A stretch of 64,000 nt of DNA from Candidatus Kaiserbacteria bacterium (GTDB lineage Bacteria; Patescibacteriota; Minisyncoccia; Phycocordibacterales; UBA2100). Below are positions 12,356 through 51,772 of the stretch, piece after piece. The DNA lies in contig JAQBQU010000017.1 in assembly GCA_028286865.1 (NCBI GenBank), positions 14,395-78,394 on the forward strand, written 5' to 3'. Numbering within the stretch: the first letter of the stretch is position 1; every line of letters starts with the position of its first letter. The notes beneath the pieces are model-generated. The model ran no database searches, had not been told where the DNA came from, and was given only the letters and a program-made list of their open reading frames with translations. A program made the translations under genes and the position numbers.

Positions 12356-12940
12356 ATGCTGCTGTCGCTTTTCTATTTCTCGTTGGTTTGGCTCGCCGCA
12401 ATTTATCTTTTCAACTGTGCTCTAGTTAGAAAGTTCAAGGTTATCCATATCGAAACAGCCCTTCTCTATATCTCCTCGGTAATGCTTTTGGGAGTCTTCG
12501 GAGAAGTATTGATCGACAGCCTTTATAAAGCTGTCTTTAAAATCCCGCTATGGGAATATCATTTACTTCCCATACACAATGCTTTTACTTCTTACTACTC
12601 ATTGTTCATATGGGGCATGTATGGATTTCACCTTTACCTTCTACATCACAGTTTGAATGGGCGAATACGTACAGGATGGGGCTTGGCAGCAATCGTAACT
12701 GCGGAAGCAATTGTGCTCGAAGTCCTTTTCAATCTCACGTCTTTGGCAGTGTTTCATCAATATATTTTCTATTATCTACCGAACGACCTCTGGCACATAA
12801 CCTCAGTACAAGTTATGCCAGTGTACTTCTTGGCAGGATTTCTTGTGGTGAGATTGACCAGAAGTGCCAAAGTTGACCCATGGTTCTTTACATTAACTAA
12901 CGCGGTCCTCGTGTTCGTGTTAGTTTTCCTAACCTCATAA
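12356..12940 (+). CDS. polytopic membrane protein (194 aa) in a low-GC islet
   Basis: About 40% GC against about 58% in the flanks, with 5-6 predicted TM helices. It is flanked by tRNA-3'-end-like repeats at 12289-12303 and 13000-13018. Confidence 0.6.
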
Positions 12941-33291: not shown

Positions 33292-33293
33292 AT

Positions 33294-33325
33294 AAAAAAC
33301 CCCGGGGAATGCCCCGGGGTTTTCT
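33294..33325. terminator. bidirectional terminator (CCCCGGGG-AATG-CCCCGGGG)
   Basis: An A-run upstream and a T-run downstream of an 8-bp GC stem, between convergent genes. Confidence 0.7.
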
Positions 33326-33350
33326 CGAATGACCATGTGGTCCGAAAGAT

Positions 33351-33848
33351 CTAGACGCGGCATTCCTGCCGAAGGACCGGACGAATGTCGATCGCGCGGA
33401 CGTTTCTTGCCGTCGCCCACAGTATCGCTGTCGGATCGAATTCCTTATTCGGTGCGGGAATAAAGGCGAAGACGAAGCCGGGTTTACTGATGACGCGAAT
33501 GGCGCCACGGGTCGCTTCTTTGAGCTGCTCCGCCTGAGACTTTGCGGCTTCGACGTCCCACTTGCGTGTGGTGCCGCAGAAGCCGTTATTCCACGCTTCG
33601 AGATCGAGCGGCTTCTTCGGCGGCACCATCGGCGATAGGATCGGCTTCACGCCCTTCTCGATCGTAATCCGCATGCACTTCGCACGCGCAGGGACTTCCA
33701 GAGATTCGACGTAAGACGACCTGCCATGCCAGAAGCCGAATTTCCGCAGTGAAGGATTCCAGGAATAAAACGAACCGCTCAGAGCTGGCACTGGTGTGCG
33801 AGCAGCGGACGAATCGGCGGGAATTGCTATACGAAGCACTGTCTGCAA
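33351..33848 (-). CDS. hypothetical protein (up to 165 aa; start uncertain)
   Basis: Strongly GC3-biased ORF with no motif recognised. Confidence 0.4.
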   Translation of the reverse strand: MQTVLRIAIPADSSAARTPVPALSGSFYSWNPSLRKFGFWHGRSSYVESLEVPARAKCMRITIEKGVKPILSPMVPPKKPLDLEAWNNGFCGTTRKWDVEAAKSQAEQLKEATRGAIRVISKPGFVFAFIPAPNKEFDPTAILWATARNVRAIDIRPVLRQECRV

Positions 33849-33926
33849 GGCTTTCCTCCATGTATTGCCCGCCTTTGCGGGTCAGGCCACAACGACCTCG
33901 GGATACTTTGCTATACGGATCTATAT

Positions 33927-34934: not shown

Positions 34935-34978
34935 GCCGTCTTTTGCGCACGTACTGCACATGGTACGCTGGTACGACC

Positions 34979-37906
34979 ATGCAGTACGACCATAAGAAAA
35001 TTGAGAAAAAGTGGCAGGATATCTGGGCACAGAACAAGATCTATACCACACCGGATTCTGCTCCCGGCAAAGAAAATTTCTACCTCCTCGTCGAGTTCCC
35101 GTATCCGTCGGGCAATCTGCACGTGGGACACTGGTACGCATTCGCGGTGCCGGATATTTTGGCGCGTTTCCAGCGCATGCAAGGAAAGAACGTTCTCTAT
35201 CCTATCGGCTTCGACGCGTTCGGGCTTCCTGCGGAAAATGCGGCTATCAAGAATAAAGTGAATCCGCGCACGTGGACCGACGGCAACATCAAGTTTATGA
35301 AAGGTCAGATCGAATCGATGGGAACATCGTTCGACTGGTCGCGCGAAGTAGCGACGTACACTCCCGAATACTACAAGTGGACGCAGTGGCTTTTCCTGCA
35401 GCTCTATCAGAAAGGATTGGTCTATCAGAAAGAGACGGCGGTCAACTGGTGCCCGAATGATAAGACCGTGCTCGCCAACGAGCAGGTCGTCGACGGCAAG
35501 TGTGAGCGATGCGGACACGTAGTCGAGCAGCGGCAGATGCTGCAGTGGAATATCAAGATCACCGACTACGCAGACCGTCTTATCGACGATCTCGAGCCCC
35601 TCGATTGGCCGAATGAAATAAAGGAATCCCAAAAGAACTGGATCGGCCGCAGCGAGGGGGCGGAGATCGATTTTCAAGTTGTATTTGGAGAAAGCGATAT
35701 AAAATACAACTATATTTTTCTACACGGAAAAGGTGGTTCGCCGGAATCTGATTTCTGGCCGTGGCTCAAAGTACAGCTTGAGCGAAGAGGGCATCGCGTA
35801 CAAGCGCCGGCAATGCCGAACCCTGCAGACCCGAGTGATGAGGAGCAGGCGGATCATGTACAAAAAAATTGCACATTCGATGAGCATACAATTTTGCTCG
35901 GTCATTCCTTCGGTGGCATCGTGGCGCTTCGCCTTCTCGAGCGAGGTGTAAAGGTGGAGGCCGTCACGTTGATCGGTACACCGACGAGCGGTGTTTATCT
36001 CGATGGAAAAGATCGTCCATCAGTTACAAAGGCGGCTCAAAAGGGATTTAATTCAGAGAAGATCAATGCAAGTTCAAAACGAATCGTGTTGCTTTATGAT
36101 ACCAATGATCATGTGGTGCCGCTGTCGGACGGGGAAGCTCTAGTAAAACAGATCGGTGGACATTTCTTTACCGCAAAAGCGGAGAAGTCCCACTTTAATG
36201 CAAAGATCGAGCCCGAAGTACTTAGATACGCCGACCCGACCCTCACAGTCTTTACAACGCGTCCCGATACACTTTTCGGAGCCACGTATCTCGTACTCGC
36301 ACCCGAGCATCCATGGGTGACACTCGCGCTCGGGCATAAGACCGTACTTGAGAATAACGATGAAGTTGCCTCCTATGTGGACCGCACGCAGAAGATGTCG
36401 GACATGGACCGACAGACCACCAAAGAAAAAACCGGCGCACAGCTTAAAGGTGTGATGGCGATCAATCCTGCGACCAATGAAAAGATCCCGATGTTCATCG
36501 CGGATTACGTGCTTCCGCAATACGGTACCGGCGCCATCATGGCAGTGCCTGCACACGATGAGCGTGACTATGAATTCGCGAAGAAATTTGGTCTGCCGAT
36601 CAGACAGGTCGTTTCATCGGATTCTGATCTGCCGTATACCGGCACCGGGACGATCATGAATTCGGCCTCGTATGATGGGCTTTCGATAGAAGATGCAAAG
36701 AAGATGATGATAGAGGCGTACGGCAGACGCAAAACGACTTTCCGTCTTCGCGACTGGATCGTATCGCGCCAAAGGTATTGGGGTGTGCCGATACCAATGA
36801 TCCACTGTGAGAAATGTGGTGCTCAGCCGGTTCCTGATGCACATCTGCCGGTCGTACTTCCTGATGTCGAAGATTATCTTCCGGAAGGCTCAGGCAAATC
36901 ACCGCTCGCCAAGGTGGATTCGTTCGTGAATGTGAAGTGTCCGAAGTGCGGCGGCGCAGCGAAGCGCGAGACCGATACGCTCGATACGTTCGTCGATTCT
37001 TCGTGGTACTTCTTGCGCTATACCGATCCGAAAAATGCTGTTGAATTTGCATCGCGTGAGAAGCAGGACGCATGGTTGCCGGTGGATCTGTATTCCGGCG
37101 GCGCAGAGCACACGACGATGCATTTGCTCTATAGCCGTTTCTGGCACAAAGCGCTCTATGATATCGGGCTTGTAAAAGATCCGGAGCCGTATAAGCGCCG
37201 CATGAATCGCAGTCTCATCATGGGTCCCGACGGCCAGAAGATGAGCAAATCCCGCGGCAACGTCATCGATCCCGATGAGGTAGTGAATATGCTCGGGGCC
37301 GACACCGTGCGAATGTACCTGGCATTTATCGGCCCGTACGCAGAGGTTGCCAGCTATCCGTGGAATCCCGACGGGGTTGTCGGCGTACGTCGATTCTTGG
37401 AGCGCGTGGCCCGTGCCGAAGAATATGTACAAGCCGAGGATGTCGCATCGCTCAACGGCCCGCTTCACAAAGCGATCAAGAAGATCGGCGAGGATATAAC
37501 GTTGATGAAATTCAATACCGGCATCTCGCAACTGATGATCCTGCAGAATGCGATAGAGAAAGATAAGAAAATAGAAAAAGCGCAGTTCTCGACGATGCTG
37601 CAGTTGCTCGCACCGTTCGCGCCACACATCACAGAAGAACTCTGGAACAAGCTCGGCAACGAGTCTTCAATTCATACGCAGCCGTGGCCCGCATTCGATG
37701 CAAAATATCTGGTGGATGACGAGGTGGTCATTGCGGTGCAGATCGACGGCAAGACACGAGGCGAATTCACGATCGCGAGCGATGCCGACAAAGCTGCCGT
37801 AGAAGCCGCTGCAAAAGCAGCGGTCGCCGCACGGCTCGACGGGAAGACGATCTCGCGCACGATCGTGGTACCCAAGCGCCTCGTCAACTTTGTTCTCGAA
37901 GCTTAG
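34979..37906 (+). CDS. leuS: leucyl-tRNA synthetase carrying an inserted RBBP9/YdeN-like alpha/beta serine hydrolase domain
   Basis: HVGH-like (LHVGHWY) and KMSKS motifs, and CP1 editing domain motifs (TVFTTRPDTLFGATY). Between NWIGRSEGAEIDF and TVFTTRPDT, where E. coli LeuS has about 9 residues, about 190 residues are inserted: YIFLHGKGGSPESDFWPWLK...MPNP...ILLGHSFGGIVA...DHVVP...GGHFF. Confidence 0.9.
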   Translation: MQYDHKKIEKKWQDIWAQNKIYTTPDSAPGKENFYLLVEFPYPSGNLHVGHWYAFAVPDILARFQRMQGKNVLYPIGFDAFGLPAENAAIKNKVNPRTWTDGNIKFMKGQIESMGTSFDWSREVATYTPEYYKWTQWLFLQLYQKGLVYQKETAVNWCPNDKTVLANEQVVDGKCERCGHVVEQRQMLQWNIKITDYADRLIDDLEPLDWPNEIKESQKNWIGRSEGAEIDFQVVFGESDIKYNYIFLHGKGGSPESDFWPWLKVQLERRGHRVQAPAMPNPADPSDEEQADHVQKNCTFDEHTILLGHSFGGIVALRLLERGVKVEAVTLIGTPTSGVYLDGKDRPSVTKAAQKGFNSEKINASSKRIVLLYDTNDHVVPLSDGEALVKQIGGHFFTAKAEKSHFNAKIEPEVLRYADPTLTVFTTRPDTLFGATYLVLAPEHPWVTLALGHKTVLENNDEVASYVDRTQKMSDMDRQTTKEKTGAQLKGVMAINPATNEKIPMFIADYVLPQYGTGAIMAVPAHDERDYEFAKKFGLPIRQVVSSDSDLPYTGTGTIMNSASYDGLSIEDAKKMMIEAYGRRKTTFRLRDWIVSRQRYWGVPIPMIHCEKCGAQPVPDAHLPVVLPDVEDYLPEGSGKSPLAKVDSFVNVKCPKCGGAAKRETDTLDTFVDSSWYFLRYTDPKNAVEFASREKQDAWLPVDLYSGGAEHTTMHLLYSRFWHKALYDIGLVKDPEPYKRRMNRSLIMGPDGQKMSKSRGNVIDPDEVVNMLGADTVRMYLAFIGPYAEVASYPWNPDGVVGVRRFLERVARAEEYVQAEDVASLNGPLHKAIKKIGEDITLMKFNTGISQLMILQNAIEKDKKIEKAQFSTMLQLLAPFAPHITEELWNKLGNESSIHTQPWPAFDAKYLVDDEVVIAVQIDGKTRGEFTIASDADKAAVEAAAKAAVAARLDGKTISRTIVVPKRLVNFVLEA
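35675..36245 (+). other. in-frame lower-GC insertion within leuS encoding a small alpha/beta hydrolase (GHSFG nucleophile elbow)
   Basis: This segment has about 48% GC with AT-rich codons (aaa, tta, gat, aat), while the flanking leuS is about 58% GC and GC3-biased. The encoded sequence fits the RBBP9/YdeN serine hydrolase family (HG.GG...W..WLK..L...MPNP......GHS.G). Confidence 0.7.
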
Positions 37907-49726: not shown

Positions 49727-50845
49727 GTGCATGGCGGAGTCAATATGAAAGCCTACTTTCAGACAGAGAAGTACAAGCGTTATTGCTTTGCAATTGCTCG
49801 CAGAGCACGCAAAAGAAGAAGGCAGCGAAAAGTATCCATCCGTATTCTACGGCAAGTTCTACTTGGGAAAGATACTAACTCTGCAAGTCGCATAAGGGAT
49901 TTTGCCGACTACAAGCTGCATGTAGTAGCTCCAGTTGATTGTTGTTTTTTAACTAACATTGAAGAAGTCACAACATTTATAAACAAGCTGGAAGAGCATA
50001 GGGCAGCACGATCAAGAGTATTCGTGGTTCTCAAGAAGGTCGAAAAGTTTGATTATGCAGCAATATCGGTGCTACTTTCAGTCATGTCCACTTTTAAGTT
50101 GGAGCGGACGGGATTTAATGGCGATTTTCCAGCGAATCGTGAGGCAAGAAAGCTGATTGTGGAGTCTGGTTTCTTCGACCATATAAATCGAAAACGTTCC
50201 GAAAAGGAGGAAGATTTGGGATATATAAGAGGTAAAGACAATCAAATATTCACTCACCTAAACACCAATGTTGTTCCGGAACTTGGGTTACCTATTCTTG
50301 AGCAGGCTTCAACTACTGTTTGCGGTGAAAAAAAGGCCAATGGGGGTCTTCACAGTGTACTGATGGAACTAATGCAAAATACTAACAACCATGCCGCTTC
50401 GGGCATAAAAGGGGAGAAGCATTGGTGGCTGTCTGTAAATCACAATGCCGTAAATAAACTTGTCAGTTTCTCATTCATAGATCACGGAGTAGGAGTATTA
50501 ACGAGCCTAGATAGAAAGCCTCCTTCCAGTAGGTGGCACAGAGCTGTACAAAATGCTGCAAAAACTTTTGGCATAGAAAGTAATGAAAACTTCATAGAAG
50601 CGCTTTTGTCGGGAAAAATCCATCAGACCGTCACAAAAAAGTCCTATCGAGGCAAGGGATTGCCAAATATCAAGCGAATGCTAGATTTCAATAAGATTGG
50701 TAACTTACAGATAATTACCAATAATGTCTACGCAAATGTGGCCAAGAAGGAATATAGGCTGCTAAATCAGGATTTTAAAGGAACCTTCTTCTACTGGGAG
50801 CTTTCCTCTGAAAATGAATTTAAACCATGGACAATAATCTCATAA
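49727..50845 (+). CDS. STAS-like + GHKL (histidine-kinase/anti-sigma-kinase-like) ATPase protein, low-GC
   Basis: Bergerat-fold motifs: N-box LMELMQNTNNHA, G1 IDHGVGV, G2 YRGKGLPNIKRML. N-terminal region is basic (RRARKRRRQRK) followed by a STAS-like segment (VFVVLKKVEKFDYAAISVLLSVM...ARKLIVESGFFDHI). GC is about 40%. An alternative ATG start is at 49745. Confidence 0.65.
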   Translation: MHGGVNMKAYFQTEKYKRYCFAIARRARKRRRQRKVSIRILRQVLLGKDTNSASRIRDFADYKLHVVAPVDCCFLTNIEEVTTFINKLEEHRAARSRVFVVLKKVEKFDYAAISVLLSVMSTFKLERTGFNGDFPANREARKLIVESGFFDHINRKRSEKEEDLGYIRGKDNQIFTHLNTNVVPELGLPILEQASTTVCGEKKANGGLHSVLMELMQNTNNHAASGIKGEKHWWLSVNHNAVNKLVSFSFIDHGVGVLTSLDRKPPSSRWHRAVQNAAKTFGIESNENFIEALLSGKIHQTVTKKSYRGKGLPNIKRMLDFNKIGNLQIITNNVYANVAKKEYRLLNQDFKGTFFYWELSSENEFKPWTIIS

Positions 50846-51162
50846 CACTAGCTACGGATTTCTCTATAACGCCAGGTCCTCGATCTATAGTCGAGGGCCC
50901 GTTTTCAGGTGAAAAGTTTAGAGATGAAATTCTCGCGCCTAGATTTTTAGCTGCTCTCGAAAATGGCGGTACCCTTACAGTTAATTTGGATGGTGCGGTT
51001 GGATATGGGACAAGCTTTCTTGAGGAAGCTTTCGGTGGACTCGCGAGACTCTATGGCATCCAGGAGGTTAAGCAAACTATCCGAATAATTTCTAACGAGG
51101 AACCGTATCTAAAGGATGACGTCATGCAATATATAGACGAAGCAAATGACCAAGTTAAATAA
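50827..51162 (+). CDS. DUF4325/STAS-like domain protein (111 aa)
   Basis: TVNLDGAVGYGTSFLEEAFGGLARLYG matches the DUF4325 core (..DF.gV....sSF.dE.fG.L....G). It overlaps the upstream gene by 19 nt. Confidence 0.6.
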   Translation: MDNNLITLATDFSITPGPRSIVEGPFSGEKFRDEILAPRFLAALENGGTLTVNLDGAVGYGTSFLEEAFGGLARLYGIQEVKQTIRIISNEEPYLKDDVMQYIDEANDQVK

Positions 51163-51772
51163 AACTTACTTTCCGATTGCACTTATAATCTTGCTCGTCG
51201 GGACACTTCTTGGTTTTTGTGCCTACGCGTATTCTGAAAATTACTTATTTATCGATTATCAAAAAGGGTTGCAATTGTCACTCGATCCAATCGAGATTTT
51301 TTCTATAGCGATCAATATATTGCTCGCTGTATGGATACTGCGAAAATTGAGTCGGGACGATGATAGTGAAAAGGTTGAGCGTGATTTGATAATCCGCTAC
51401 TTCGAAGACTTCGATAAAGACTTAATGCGGGCGGTAAGAAAGTCTTCTCAAAATGGTGTTAAGTATGCGTTTGTCGTAGCTGCTCTCAAGGAGCTGAGAA
51501 TTCGTCTGTTAAGACTTTTATCTCTTGCGATTGAGCAGGGATTTATAACTAATGATTCTGTATGTACGATAGCGCTCCCGGAGCACTTAAAAGGCCTTAG
51601 AAAGCTTTTGACTACGACTCCGCGAAAAGGGGCCGTAGAGGATGGGATCAGAGTTGAGGAAGGAAAGCTGTATTTTTCGGATGAGCATATAAATAAAATA
51701 AATGCAGCAATGTTCGAGACAAACAATGGAGTTTTCCGACTTCTGGTCGAAGTTACGCGTGCTCGACGGTAG
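51146..51772 (+). CDS. 2-TM membrane protein with cytoplasmic domain (208 aa), third gene of the low-GC cassette
   Basis: Overlaps the upstream gene by 17 nt. Two N-terminal TM helices then a charged helical domain. About 38% GC. Confidence 0.55.
   Translation: MTKLNKTYFPIALIILLVGTLLGFCAYAYSENYLFIDYQKGLQLSLDPIEIFSIAINILLAVWILRKLSRDDDSEKVERDLIIRYFEDFDKDLMRAVRKSSQNGVKYAFVVAALKELRIRLLRLLSLAIEQGFITNDSVCTIALPEHLKGLRKLLTTTPRKGAVEDGIRVEEGKLYFSDEHINKINAAMFETNNGVFRLLVEVTRARR

What the first reader, a model, noticed from the sequence alone, without database searches (positions are those of the whole stretch)
35675..36245. leuS carries an in-frame, compositionally foreign insertion encoding an RBBP9/YdeN-like serine hydrolase domain at the catalytic/CP1 junction
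In bacterial LeuS the segment between NWIGRSEG(A/V)E(I/V).F and (T)V(F/Y)TTRPDT is about 9-20 residues. Here about 190 residues are inserted. They contain a GHSFG nucleophile elbow, an N-terminal HGKGGSP...WPWLK...MPNP block and downstream D/H candidates (TNDHVVP; GGHFF). That is the signature of the smallest alpha/beta-hydrolase family (RBBP9/YdeN, PF06821-like). The inserted DNA is visibly lower in GC and uses AT-rich codons, unlike the GC3-rich flanks, which argues for horizontal acquisition rather than drift. An esterase sitting at the editing-domain hinge of a synthetase is, to my knowledge, not a described LeuS architecture. It could be an extra editing or deacylating activity, a resistance function against aminoacyl-adenylate-mimicking inhibitors, or a domesticated mobile insertion.
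Basis: partly seen in the sequence, partly recalled or inferred. Interest (0 to 1): 0.85.

Follow-up and report, generated by a model that had tools for sequence, protein, structure and literature searches.

The report
Serine hydrolase cassette nested inside LeuRS
The leucyl-tRNA synthetase of this Kaiserbacteria genome carries a complete, apparently active RBBP9/YdeN-type serine hydrolase inside its editing domain; the module is widespread and swapped like a cassette among candidate-phyla-radiation bacteria, and no paper I could find describes it.

Summary
leuS (34979-37906, +) carries an in-frame 190-codon insert (35675-36244). It lies in the first beta-hairpin of the CP1 editing domain. The insert passes Pfam PF06821 and folds on its own (pLDDT 95.9). 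Its closest solved structures are RBBP9 and YdeN (TM about 0.8). The HG, Ser322, Asp386/Asp389 and His417 positions are conserved in 117 homologues.

The insert is not a one-off. 117 of the 121 closest LeuRS sequences carry it, and 87 also carry a NUDIX domain in CP1. It evolves under purifying selection (omega 0.06). Its history is decoupled from the host gene: near-identical leuS backbones carry unrelated hydrolase types, or none. Low GC3 is shared by all cassettes examined.

The module occurs at three or more sites in LeuRS. Free-standing relatives lie next to bacterial-type and archaeal-type leuS, once with YbaK-like and Ham1 genes.

It most likely hydrolyses alpha-aminoacyl esters or amides in partnership with LeuRS, either as extra proofreading or as inhibitor clearance. 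This function is inferred, not shown. Nine literature searches found no description.

The parts
34979..37906 (+). leuS, bacterial-type leucyl-tRNA synthetase carrying the insert. It is 975 aa from the ATG. The ORF stays open upstream to a TTG at 34943, and residue numbers in this report count from that TTG.
   Evidence: ORF. TIGR00396 981 bits in two stretches. Pfam PF00133, PF13603 and PF08264. 100% identical to NCBI 'MAG: leuS [Candidatus Kaiserbacteria bacterium]' P0002.
35675..36244 (+). The in-frame 190-codon insert (Q245-L434): an RBBP9/YdeN-type alpha/beta serine hydrolase domain placed between the two strands of the first CP1 beta-hairpin.
   Evidence: PF06821 34.1 bits against a gathering score of 22. 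AF2 pLDDT 95.9, pTM 0.92. Foldseek gives 2qs9 and 1uxo at TM 0.79-0.81. In the full-length model, strands E224-236 and E421-426 flank the insert.
35708..36235 (+). The part of the insert that aligns without gaps, end to end, with the free-standing 179-aa hydrolase P0001 (46% identity).
   Evidence: BLASTP, 176 columns, no gaps. Coordinates.
35723..35728 (+). The His261-Gly262 'HG' motif, whose position matches the oxyanion-hole motif of alpha/beta hydrolases.
   Evidence: His in 117 of 117 and Gly in 110 of 117 insert-bearing LeuRS. The oxyanion-hole role is inferred from general knowledge of the fold.
35900..35914 (+). The GHSFG nucleophile elbow. Ser322 is the codon at 35906-35908.
   Evidence: Ser in 116 of 117. 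It aligns with RBBP9 Ser75 and the YdeN serine.
36098..36109 (+). Asp386 (invariant) and Asp389, which aligns with the catalytic Asp138 of RBBP9. These are the candidate catalytic acids.
   Evidence: D386 in 117 of 117. D389 is Asp in 98 and Glu in 13. RBBP9 alignment.
36191..36193 (+). His417 in 'KSHF', the conserved catalytic histidine.
   Evidence: 117 of 117. It aligns with 'HHF' of P0001. Invariant column H173 in alignment A1.
36245..36817 (+). The CP1 editing domain proper. Its canonical editing motifs are intact: TTRPDT at 36254-36271 and the Asp542 codon of the HDERD motif at 36566-36568.
   Evidence: PF13603 187 bits. TTRPDT is kept in 119 of 121 and D542 in 121 of 121 homologues.
36626..36634 (+). 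The position in CP1 (residues 562-564) where 88 of the 121 closest LeuRS sequences carry a NUDIX domain of about 150 aa. This site is empty in the window.
   Evidence: Alignment insertions after window residues 562-564, and architecture counts. NUDIX box positions.
35636..35674 (+). The left conserved flank (NWIGRSEGAEIDF). Together with the right flank (VFTTRPDTLFGATY, 36248-36289), it is the proposed homology arm for cassette exchange.
   Evidence: The drop in nucleotide identity between near-identical leuS alleles starts and ends at these motifs. The role in recombination is inferred.

Best explanation
Shown: the insert is a complete, catalytically equipped RBBP9/YdeN-type serine hydrolase. 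It is nested at the tip of the first beta-hairpin of the LeuRS CP1 editing domain, six residues before the threonine-rich editing motif. It is one member of a pool of hydrolase cassettes in candidate-phyla-radiation LeuRS, with at least three sequence types and often a NUDIX domain inserted elsewhere in CP1. The cassettes are kept by purifying selection. They are lost or replaced between leuS alleles. Inferred: the exchange happens by homologous recombination through the very conserved flanks NWIGRSEGAEIDF and VFTTRPDT. Inferred function: the domain works with LeuRS as an alpha-aminoacyl hydrolase. Ser322 attacks an aminoacyl ester or amide that has a free alpha-amine. The most likely substrates are aminoacyl-tRNA or aminoacyl-adenylate species made or released by LeuRS. 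This would add a hydrolytic clearance step to the intact CP1 editing site. The partner NUDIX or Ham1 enzymes would deal with the nucleotide part.
For: Fold and triad: PF06821 above its gathering score, AF2 pLDDT 95.9, RBBP9 and YdeN as top structural matches at TM about 0.8, and H261, S322, D386, D389 and H417 conserved in 117 sequences. Selection: omega is 0.059 in the insert, 0.05 in the catalytic core and 0.10 in CP1, for L002 against L073. Link to LeuRS, four lines. (i) LeuRS is the host in about 50 of about 60 fused cluster representatives at E<=1e-30. (ii) The module sits at three different LeuRS sites: the CP1 hairpin, the Zn hairpin after RDWxxSRQRYWG, and the first loop of the anticodon-binding domain. 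(iii) In 6 of 7 cases that could be evaluated, free-standing relatives lie beside leuS. P0001 has a 2-bp gap, P0127 6 bp, and P0153 24 bp (that leuS carries NUDIX only). L083 lies 12 bp upstream of an archaeal-type leuS, and L084 lies 1.3 kb upstream of leuS. L077 is an operon of hydrolase, hydrolase, YbaK-like tRNA_edit, Ham1 and archaeal-type leuS. (iv) In the domain tree these stand-alone genes interleave with the LeuRS-embedded modules. [quoted passage not shown] It is also cited as a valacyclovir-activating enzyme, and valacyclovir is an amino-acid ester (reference list of PMC7730578). Cassette exchange: L002 and L004 leuS are 97-100% identical in nucleotides outside the insert (C-terminal core, residues 620-985: dS 0.076) but 28-58% identical inside it. 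L003 has the same backbone with no insert. Core and insert identities are nearly uncorrelated (Spearman 0.13 over 6670 pairs).
Against: No biochemical data exist for any member. The canonical CP1 editing motifs are intact in 119-121 of 121 homologues, so an extra deacylase looks redundant. Near-identical strains live with a different cassette type or with none, which argues against an indispensable proofreading role. The residues that bind the alpha-amine in RBBP9 (Ser76, Tyr99, Glu108) are not conserved here. The three insertion sites are far apart in sequence, and I could not measure distances in the models. The same module occurs once each inside AlaRS, ValRS, TsaD, EngA, SecA, UvrA, UvrB and a formyltransferase, so LeuRS is not its only host.
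Confidence: 0.4

Rival explanations
1. Target-mounted antidote. The hydrolase, together with the NUDIX, Ham1 or GNAT partners, destroys aminoacyl-adenylate-mimicking inhibitors of LeuRS (agrocin-84-like, microcin-C-like or aminoacyl-sulfamoyl-adenosine-like compounds). It would do so by cleaving the aminoacyl-nucleotide amide or ester, in the way MccF does for microcin C. The cassette turnover would reflect an arms race.
For: Presence/absence and type polymorphism among near-identical strains, with cassettes decoupled from the core. One LeuRS carries GNAT plus hydrolase at the same site (P0212). From my own knowledge, GNAT acetylation by MccE is a known route of resistance to aminoacyl-nucleotide antibiotics. 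NCBIfam already has an 'ileS_w_GNAT' class. The hydrolase repeatedly pairs with the nucleotide pyrophosphatases NUDIX and Ham1, both inside LeuRS and in free two-domain proteins. Parcubacteria encode MccH-like phosphoramidases, and one of them protects E. coli from microcin C (bioRxiv 10.1101/2020.03.04.977132). RBBP9 cleaves aminoacyl amides that have a free amine.
Against: No such inhibitor is known in the habitats of these organisms. There is no PADLOC hit and no resistance-family hit. The module is not homologous to MccF. The hosts SecA, UvrA, UvrB and EngA are not aaRS targets. The YbaK-like neighbour in L077 points to tRNA editing rather than drug clearance.
Confidence: 0.2
2. Host-independent passenger. 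The hydrolase is a gene-within-a-gene cassette that rides in frame in conserved sites of essential genes and spreads by recombination. Its enzymatic role would have nothing to do with LeuRS, for example a general esterase or aminopeptidase, or nucleotide-derivative house-cleaning with NUDIX. LeuRS would simply be the most permissive carrier.
For: In-frame copies of the same clade lie inside AlaRS, ValRS, TsaD, EngA, SecA, UvrA, UvrB and a formyltransferase. Absence is precise in near-identical backbones. GC3 is lower than the host gene in every genome examined. One pair has 100% identical inserts in LeuRS cores that are 83% identical (P0046 and P0116). More distant family members are ordinary stand-alone genes not linked to leuS (L090-L096), or are fused to NUDIX, Ham1, ADK or peptidase S51 without any aaRS.
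Against: There is a strong bias to LeuRS as host and three independent LeuRS sites. In 6 of 7 evaluable cases the stand-alone relatives sit beside leuS, including archaeal-type leuS, which a carrier-only model does not predict. No nuclease or recombinase is associated. No relative was found on viral contigs beyond one weak partial hit. No intein motifs are present.
Confidence: 0.25
3. Substrate supply. An RBBP9-like aminopeptidase releases N-terminal hydrophobic residues, including leucine, from scavenged peptides right next to the LeuRS synthetic site. This would help an auxotrophic episymbiont.
For: RBBP9 is an aminopeptidase, and Leu/Ile is among the amino acids it traps. One family member is fused to a peptidase S51 domain. 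CPR bacteria lack most amino-acid biosynthesis (my own knowledge).
Against: This does not explain the partnership with NUDIX, Ham1 and YbaK-like proteins. It also does not explain the hosts that are not aaRS.
Confidence: 0.05
4. Artefact or dead insertion: a chimeric metagenome assembly or a decaying remnant with no function.
For: All sequences come from metagenome-assembled genomes. One relative (P0013) has Leu in place of the nucleophilic Ser.
Against: The frame is open in more than 100 independent assemblies from NCBI, ENA, JGI and Logan. Omega is 0.059. The triad is invariant. The fold is predicted with confidence.
Confidence: 0.02

Closest known systems
RBBP9 / YdeN serine hydrolases (Pfam PF06821; PDB 2qs9, 7oex, 1uxo)
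   Same: The same minimal alpha/beta-hydrolase fold of about 180 residues, with no lid (TM 0.79-0.81). The same order of HG, GxSxG, Asp and His. The insert passes the Pfam gathering score.
   Different: Sequence identity is only 23-27%. The domain is nested inside another enzyme rather than free. The RBBP9 residues that hold the alpha-amine (Ser76, Tyr99, Glu108) are not conserved. It belongs to a separate subclade whose members are embedded in, or adjacent to, leuS. Its substrate is unknown.
Bacterial-type LeuRS with a CP1 editing domain (TIGR00396, PF13603; for example E. coli and T. thermophilus LeuRS)
   Same: HIGH (HVGH), KMSKS, the NWIGRS, TTRPDT and HDxRD editing motifs, the RDWxxSRQRYWG motif, and the anticodon-binding and C-terminal domains are all present.
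   Different: A 190-residue catalytic domain interrupts the first CP1 hairpin. Relatives add a NUDIX domain inside CP1, and one adds a GNAT domain. The curated list of aaRS domain superfamilies in AARS Online mentions no hydrolase or NUDIX module.
Free-standing trans-editing deacylases (YbaK/ProX family PF04073, AlaX, DTD)
   Same: The proposed job is the same: hydrolysis of an aminoacyl ester in partnership with an aaRS. A YbaK-like gene shares an operon with two of these hydrolases and leuS in L077.
   Different: There is no sequence or fold relationship. Those enzymes do not use a Ser-His-Asp triad (my own knowledge). Activity on aminoacyl-tRNA is untested here.
Microcin C immunity enzymes (the serine peptidase MccF, the GNAT MccE, the HIT phosphoramidase MccH)
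   Same: The concept is the same: hydrolases or acetyltransferases that neutralise aminoacyl-nucleotide inhibitors of an aaRS. GNAT and hydrolase occur together in one LeuRS. MccH-like genes exist in Parcubacteria.
   Different: The module is not homologous to MccF or MccH. It is physically built into the target enzyme. No inhibitor is known.
Inteins
   Same: They are in-frame insertions at conserved sites of essential genes. They show presence/absence polymorphism between close strains and a phylogeny decoupled from the host gene.
   Different: There is no Hint fold. The insert starts with Gln rather than Cys or Ser, and there is no His-Asn before the downstream junction (it reads ...DPTL|TVFTT). 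There is no homing endonuclease. The domain is presumably kept in the mature protein.

Membership tests
PF06821 Ser_hydrolase (RBBP9/YdeN) | Profile HMM score at or above the Pfam gathering score | tested here: met
   34.1 bits for the insert alone and 30.2 bits within the whole protein, against a gathering score of 22.
PF06821 Ser_hydrolase (RBBP9/YdeN) | Minimal alpha/beta-hydrolase fold of about 180-190 residues | tested here: met
   AF2 pLDDT 95.9, pTM 0.92. The best PDB matches are 2qs9, 7oex, 9fcr and 1uxo at TM 0.78-0.84, E about 1e-12. The next tier is at E about 1e-8.
PF06821 Ser_hydrolase (RBBP9/YdeN) | Ser-Asp-His triad, with the serine in GxSxG | tested here: met
   S322 in 116 of 117, D386 in 117 of 117, D389 as Asp or Glu in 111 of 117, and H417 in 117 of 117. 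S322 and D389 align with RBBP9 Ser75 and Asp138. The three-dimensional geometry could not be inspected.
PF06821 Ser_hydrolase (RBBP9/YdeN) | Hydrolase activity on aminoacyl amides or esters with a free alpha-amine, as shown for RBBP9 | not testable with these tools
   Known for RBBP9 only (PMC8866121). The RBBP9 residues that bind the alpha-amine are not conserved in the insert.
Bacterial-type leucyl-tRNA synthetase (TIGR00396) | Equivalog HMM score above the curated cut-off | tested here: met
   981 bits against a cut-off of 548, in two stretches broken at the insert.
Bacterial-type leucyl-tRNA synthetase (TIGR00396) | HIGH and KMSKS class I signatures, and a CP1 editing site (threonine-rich motif plus the conserved Asp) | tested here: met
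   HVGH at residue 60, KMSKS at 766, TTRPDT at 438-443 and HDERD at 538-542.
Intein | N-terminal Cys or Ser, C-terminal His-Asn followed by Cys, Ser or Thr, and a Hint fold | tested here: not met
   The insert starts at Q245 (the fold starts at N256) and ends ...ADPTL before T435. The fold is an alpha/beta hydrolase.
YbaK/ProX-type trans-editing domain (PF04073) | Homology to the tRNA_edit domain | tested here: not met
   The insert has no PF04073 hit at E<=1. A real PF04073 gene is only a neighbour, in L077. The idea that the insert works like a deacylase remains a hypothesis.
Known anti-phage defence proteins (PADLOC-DB) | A match to any defence-system model | tested here: not met
   No hits for the insert or for P0001 at E<=0.01.

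The most novel reading that the evidence does not exclude
The hydrolase is a new kind of in-frame mobile domain cassette, a gene within a gene. It colonises highly conserved sites of essential genes in CPR bacteria and some archaea: LeuRS above all, but also ValRS, AlaRS, TsaD, EngA, SecA, UvrA and UvrB. It would spread by recombination through the conserved flanks, with an intein-like lifestyle but no Hint domain. A more speculative extension is that its own Ser-His-Asp triad acts on the host polypeptide.
Probability: 0.1. Interest if true: 0.95.

Novelty: new variant of a known kind. Interest (0 to 1): 0.78.

Why it matters
Aminoacyl-tRNA synthetases are among the best-studied enzymes, and their known accessory domains do not include an alpha/beta serine hydrolase. 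In this case a whole radiation of uncultivated bacteria has built one into LeuRS beside the editing site, often with a NUDIX domain as well. The nearest characterised relative of the hydrolase cleaves aminoacyl bonds. If the hydrolase acts on aminoacyl-tRNA, on aminoacyl-adenylate, or on adenylate-mimicking antibiotics, it is either a new proofreading layer or a new target-mounted resistance mechanism. Natural alleles with different cassettes, or with none, on almost identical backbones provide ready-made controls for experiments. The cassette behaviour also gives a clean case of domain-level horizontal exchange inside an essential gene.

Tried and rejected
1. Recent single horizontal insertion into this genome. 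Rejected: the insert is present in 117 of the 121 closest LeuRS sequences, and the GC3 dip is shared across genomes.

2. Intein. Rejected on junction residues and fold.

3. Compensation for a degenerate CP1 editing site. Not supported: TTRPDT and HDxRD are intact in 119-121 of 121. Only L001 (YDSVPQT) and L021 (FTTWPHT) deviate, with no consistent pattern.

4. Assembly artefact or pseudogene. Rejected.

5. Phage-borne module. One scan of viral contigs gave a single weak partial hit at 34% identity.

6. Defence-system homology. No PADLOC hit.

7. Link between cassette type and NUDIX presence. None seen: type 1 is 47 with and 11 without NUDIX, and type 3 is 35 with and 14 without.

8. The first word-index search with the insert alone returned only P0001 and missed even the window's own protein. 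This was a sensitivity limit of that tool. The full-length and exhaustive searches corrected it.

9. The Foldseek afdb50 library was unavailable.

10. The wide alignment A1 was too divergent for a locus scan, so I used narrower alignments.

11. The NUDIX insert of relatives could not be assigned to a subfamily. It gave only sub-threshold MutT-like and RppH-like hits.

12. Rfam found nothing around leuS.

13. I could not measure the distance between Ser322 and the CP1 pocket, because model coordinates are not exposed.


Full report
**1. What is in the window**

An uninterrupted ORF runs from 34943 to 37906 on the + strand. Homologues and the NCBI record start at the ATG at 34979 (MQYDHKKIEKKWQ). 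Residue numbers below count from the TTG at 34943. Upstream lie a YchF GTPase gene and a DUF5671 gene, and a convergent cysS lies downstream. The same gene order occurs in related contigs.

The protein is a bacterial-type LeuRS. TIGR00396 scores 981 bits against a cut-off of 548, but in two stretches that resume at profile position 237. Pfam's LeuRS editing-domain model is split in the same way and resumes at profile position 20 at residue 431.

There are 200 residues between NWIGRS and TTRPDT. Insert-less LeuRS seen here have 19-32.

**2. The insert is an RBBP9/YdeN-type serine hydrolase**

- On its own it scores 34.1 bits on PF06821, against a gathering score of 22.
- It matches YdeN 1uxo (E 5e-11) and RBBP9 (E 1e-8) by sequence.
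- An AlphaFold2 model built from a 27-sequence alignment has pLDDT 95.9 and pTM 0.92.
- Its best PDB matches are RBBP9 (2qs9, 7oex, 9fcr) and YdeN (1uxo) at TM 0.78-0.84. These are well separated from other alpha/beta hydrolases.
- In a full-length model (pLDDT 80.2, pTM 0.59) the insert is the most confidently predicted part. It sits between two long beta-strands, the CP1 entry hairpin.

Across 117 insert-bearing LeuRS, the conserved residues are:

| Residue | Conservation |
|---|---|
| His261 (HG motif) | 117/117 |
| Ser322 (GHSFG) | 116/117 |
| Asp386 | 117/117 |
| Asp389 | 98 Asp, 13 Glu |
| Arg358 | 113 Arg, 4 Lys |
| His417 (KSHF) | 117/117 |

Ser322 and Asp389 align with RBBP9 Ser75 and Asp138.

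The canonical CP1 editing motifs just downstream are intact: TTRPDT in 119 of 121 sequences and the HDxRD aspartate in 121 of 121.

**3. It is a lineage-wide architecture, not a private insertion**

The window protein is identical to an NCBI entry named 'MAG: leuS [Candidatus Kaiserbacteria bacterium]'. The 121 closest LeuRS sequences (the window protein plus its 120 best database matches) have these architectures:

| Architecture | Count | Typical length |
|---|---|---|
| Hydrolase plus NUDIX (NUDIX inside CP1, after window residues 562-564) | 87 | about 1125 aa |
| Hydrolase only, as in the window | 30 | about 975 aa |
| NUDIX only | 1 | 955 aa |
| Neither | 3 | 811 aa |

Species-representative genomes labelled Parcubacteria, Paceibacterota, Doudnabacteria, Kerfeldbacteria and 'Saccharibacteria' also carry the module. 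Their LeuRS N-terminal catalytic segment (window residues 13-244) is only about 50-60% identical to the window's.

Public names for these proteins vary: 'leucine--tRNA ligase', 'alpha/beta fold hydrolase', 'NUDIX domain-containing protein', 'class I tRNA ligase family protein' and 'hypothetical protein'.

Nine full-text searches found no paper describing the architecture. A curated overview of aaRS domains mentions no hydrolase or NUDIX module.

**4. The module behaves as an exchangeable cassette**

- *Identity is discordant.* The window's nearest LeuRS cores (P0003 88%, P0007 88%, P0004 86% identity) carry inserts only 41%, 32% and 43% identical to the window's. P0013 has a 69.5% core and a 67% insert.
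- *There is almost no correlation.* Over 6670 pairs, core and insert identities correlate at Spearman 0.13. The inserts fall into three types, and 10 of 18 core clades (80% identity or more) mix types.
- *The DNA shows sharp boundaries.* leuS of L002 and L004 is 97-100% identical in nucleotides over most of the gene (C-terminal core, residues 620-985: dS 0.076). Inside the insert it is 28-58% identical (dN 0.82). The change occurs at the NWIGRSEGAEIDF and VFTTRPDT motifs.
- *Precise absence.* L003 has the same backbone, 100% identical to L004 over residues 13-222, and lacks the insert exactly. Its hairpin is slightly longer than usual and may be a deletion scar.
- *Selection is purifying.* Where two genomes share a cassette type (L002 and L073), omega is 0.059 in the insert. 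It is 0.05 in the catalytic core and 0.10 in CP1.
- *Low GC3 is a cassette property.* GC3 is 0.46-0.50 in the insert and 0.60-0.67 in the core, in the window, L002, L004 and L005. In the window only 3.8% of 190-codon windows are this low.

I infer that homologous recombination through the ultra-conserved flanks moves cassettes between alleles.

**5. Evidence that the hydrolase and LeuRS belong together**

*(a) Host bias.* An exhaustive profile search of 1.84 billion cluster representatives found 82 at E<=1e-30. About 50 of these are LeuRS with the module embedded.

*(b) Several insertion sites.* The module occupies at least three different places in LeuRS:
- the CP1 hairpin, as in the window;
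- the Zn hairpin after RDWxxSRQRYWG, inside 'HCxKC...PVP' (L021, P0136, P0181);
- the loop after the first helix of the anticodon-binding domain (L020, L018).

Tandem NUDIX-hydrolase insertions also exist.

*(c) Gene neighbourhood.* Free-standing relatives lie beside leuS in 6 of 7 cases that could be evaluated:

| Stand-alone gene | Context |
|---|---|
| P0001 | 2 bp upstream of leuS |
| P0127 | 6 bp upstream of leuS |
| P0153 | 24 bp upstream of a leuS that carries only the NUDIX insert |
| L083 | 12 bp upstream of an archaeal-type leuS |
| L084 | 1.3 kb upstream of a bacterial-type leuS, on an archaeal contig |
| L077 (P0144) | operon: hydrolase, hydrolase, YbaK-like tRNA_edit, Ham1-like pyrophosphatase, archaeal-type leuS |
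| P0132 | no leuS in its 3-kb contig |

One further case could not be read.

*(d) Domain tree.* These stand-alone genes interleave with the LeuRS-embedded modules. They are separate from a large clade of ordinary stand-alone YdeN-like proteins, whose members are not linked to leuS (L090-L096).

**6. A complication**

The same clade also occurs in frame, once each among the representatives examined, inside AlaRS, ValRS, TsaD, EngA, SecA, UvrA-like, UvrB and a formyltransferase. One LeuRS carries GNAT plus hydrolase. More distant members are fused to NUDIX (three times), Ham1, adenylate kinase, peptidase S51 and a glyoxalase-fold domain.

Two points follow. First, the pairing of this hydrolase with a nucleotide pyrophosphatase (NUDIX or Ham1) recurs with and without LeuRS. 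Second, the module can colonise conserved sites of other essential genes, which resembles the lifestyle of inteins. Intein junction residues and the Hint fold are absent. No relative was found on viral contigs beyond one weak partial hit.

**7. Mechanism**

Shown:
- a complete, conserved Ser-Asp-His hydrolase;
- purifying selection on it;
- physical or genomic coupling to LeuRS;
- an intact CP1 editing site alongside it.

From the literature: RBBP9, one of the two closest characterised relatives, forms acyl-enzyme adducts with single Leu/Ile, Met, Phe, Tyr and Trp. [quoted passage not shown] It is also cited as a valacyclovir-activating enzyme, and valacyclovir is an amino-acid ester.

Inferred: the module is an alpha-aminoacyl hydrolase that serves LeuRS. 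My preferred reading (0.4) is auxiliary clearance of aminoacyl-tRNA or aminoacyl-adenylate species. The YbaK-like neighbour and the position six residues before the threonine-rich editing peptide favour this.

The main rivals are:
- a target-mounted antidote against adenylate-mimicking inhibitors (0.2). The cassette polymorphism, the GNAT co-insertion, the NUDIX and Ham1 partners, and the existence of MccH-like resistance genes in Parcubacteria favour it.
- a host-independent passenger cassette (0.25), which the other hosts favour.

Arguments against the preferred reading: the intact CP1 site makes an extra deacylase look redundant; natural strains lack the insert; the RBBP9 residues that bind the alpha-amine are not conserved; and I had no access to model coordinates to test geometry.

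**8. Verdict**

The domain assignment is correct, apart from the histidine. The 'foreign' signal reflects a pool of exchangeable cassettes.

The architecture is common in CPR LeuRS but appears undescribed in the literature I could search. I rate it a new variant of a known kind (LeuRS with a new nested catalytic module) and of high interest. The mechanism is unresolved but can be tested directly.

Noticed in passing
window 36626-36634 (LeuRS residues 562-564); relatives P0005, P0006 (L073), P0009, P0020 and others: 88 of the 121 closest LeuRS sequences carry a second nested domain, a NUDIX hydrolase of about 150 aa, inside CP1 at this position. The window's allele lacks it. The NUDIX part gives only sub-threshold MutT-like and RppH-like hits.
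   Followed up: partly
P0169, P0165, P0177, P0191, P0155, P0193, P0230, P0200 (cluster representatives, not in the window): The same hydrolase clade is inserted in frame in AlaRS, ValRS, TsaD, EngA, SecA, UvrA-like, UvrB and a formyltransferase. This suggests a promiscuous in-frame domain cassette in conserved housekeeping genes.
   Followed up: partly
P0212 (1318 aa LeuRS): This LeuRS carries a GNAT acetyltransferase domain (306-388) and the hydrolase (437-603) in tandem at the CP1 hairpin site. NCBIfam already lists an IleRS class with a GNAT domain.
   Followed up: no
L077 4001-8549 (GCA_020049755.1): An operon of two PF06821 hydrolases, a YbaK-like tRNA_edit protein, a Ham1-like NTP pyrophosphatase and an archaeal-type leuS.
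   Followed up: partly
L084 172-5389: A contig with archaeal uS9 and RNA polymerase subunit N genes encodes a bacterial-type LeuRS (TIGR00396, 946 bits). A stand-alone hydrolase lies 1.3 kb upstream, and a 409-aa ORF with no family hit lies between them.
   Followed up: partly
window 33292-33926: This is a 635-bp gap between the YchF and DUF5671 genes. In the syntenic relatives L002 and L004 the gap is 41 bp. The region is GC-rich (0.58-0.62). It holds a 165-aa minus-strand ORF (33351-33848) with genome-typical GC3 (0.66) but no Pfam hit. Rfam and tRNA searches found nothing.
   Followed up: partly
window 49727-50845, 51146-51772 and 12356-12940: Three ORFs have GC3 of 0.40, 0.41 and 0.47, against a window mean of 0.66. 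None has a Pfam hit. They are probably foreign or fast-evolving genes.
   Followed up: partly
P0013 (L005 2205-5138): This is the LeuRS whose insert is most similar to the window's (67%). It has Leu in place of the nucleophilic Ser (GHLFG), the only such case among 117. It is either an inactivated copy or a sequencing error.
   Followed up: no
L001 2831-4558 and L021: Two LeuRS have non-canonical threonine-rich editing motifs: YDSVPQT in L001 and FTTWPHT in L021. In L001 the hydrolase is a separate upstream gene, and in L021 it sits at site 2. There are too few cases to tell whether this correlates with where the hydrolase is placed.
   Followed up: partly
window 37903-37906: The leuS stop codon overlaps the 3' end of the convergent cysS gene by 4 bp. 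L003 and L073 show the same overlap.
   Followed up: no
(tool behaviour): The word-index protein search with the 190-aa insert returned one hit only. It missed the window's own database entry (P0002) and more than 100 LeuRS that carry the domain. A negative result from that tool with a short query is therefore unreliable.
   Followed up: yes
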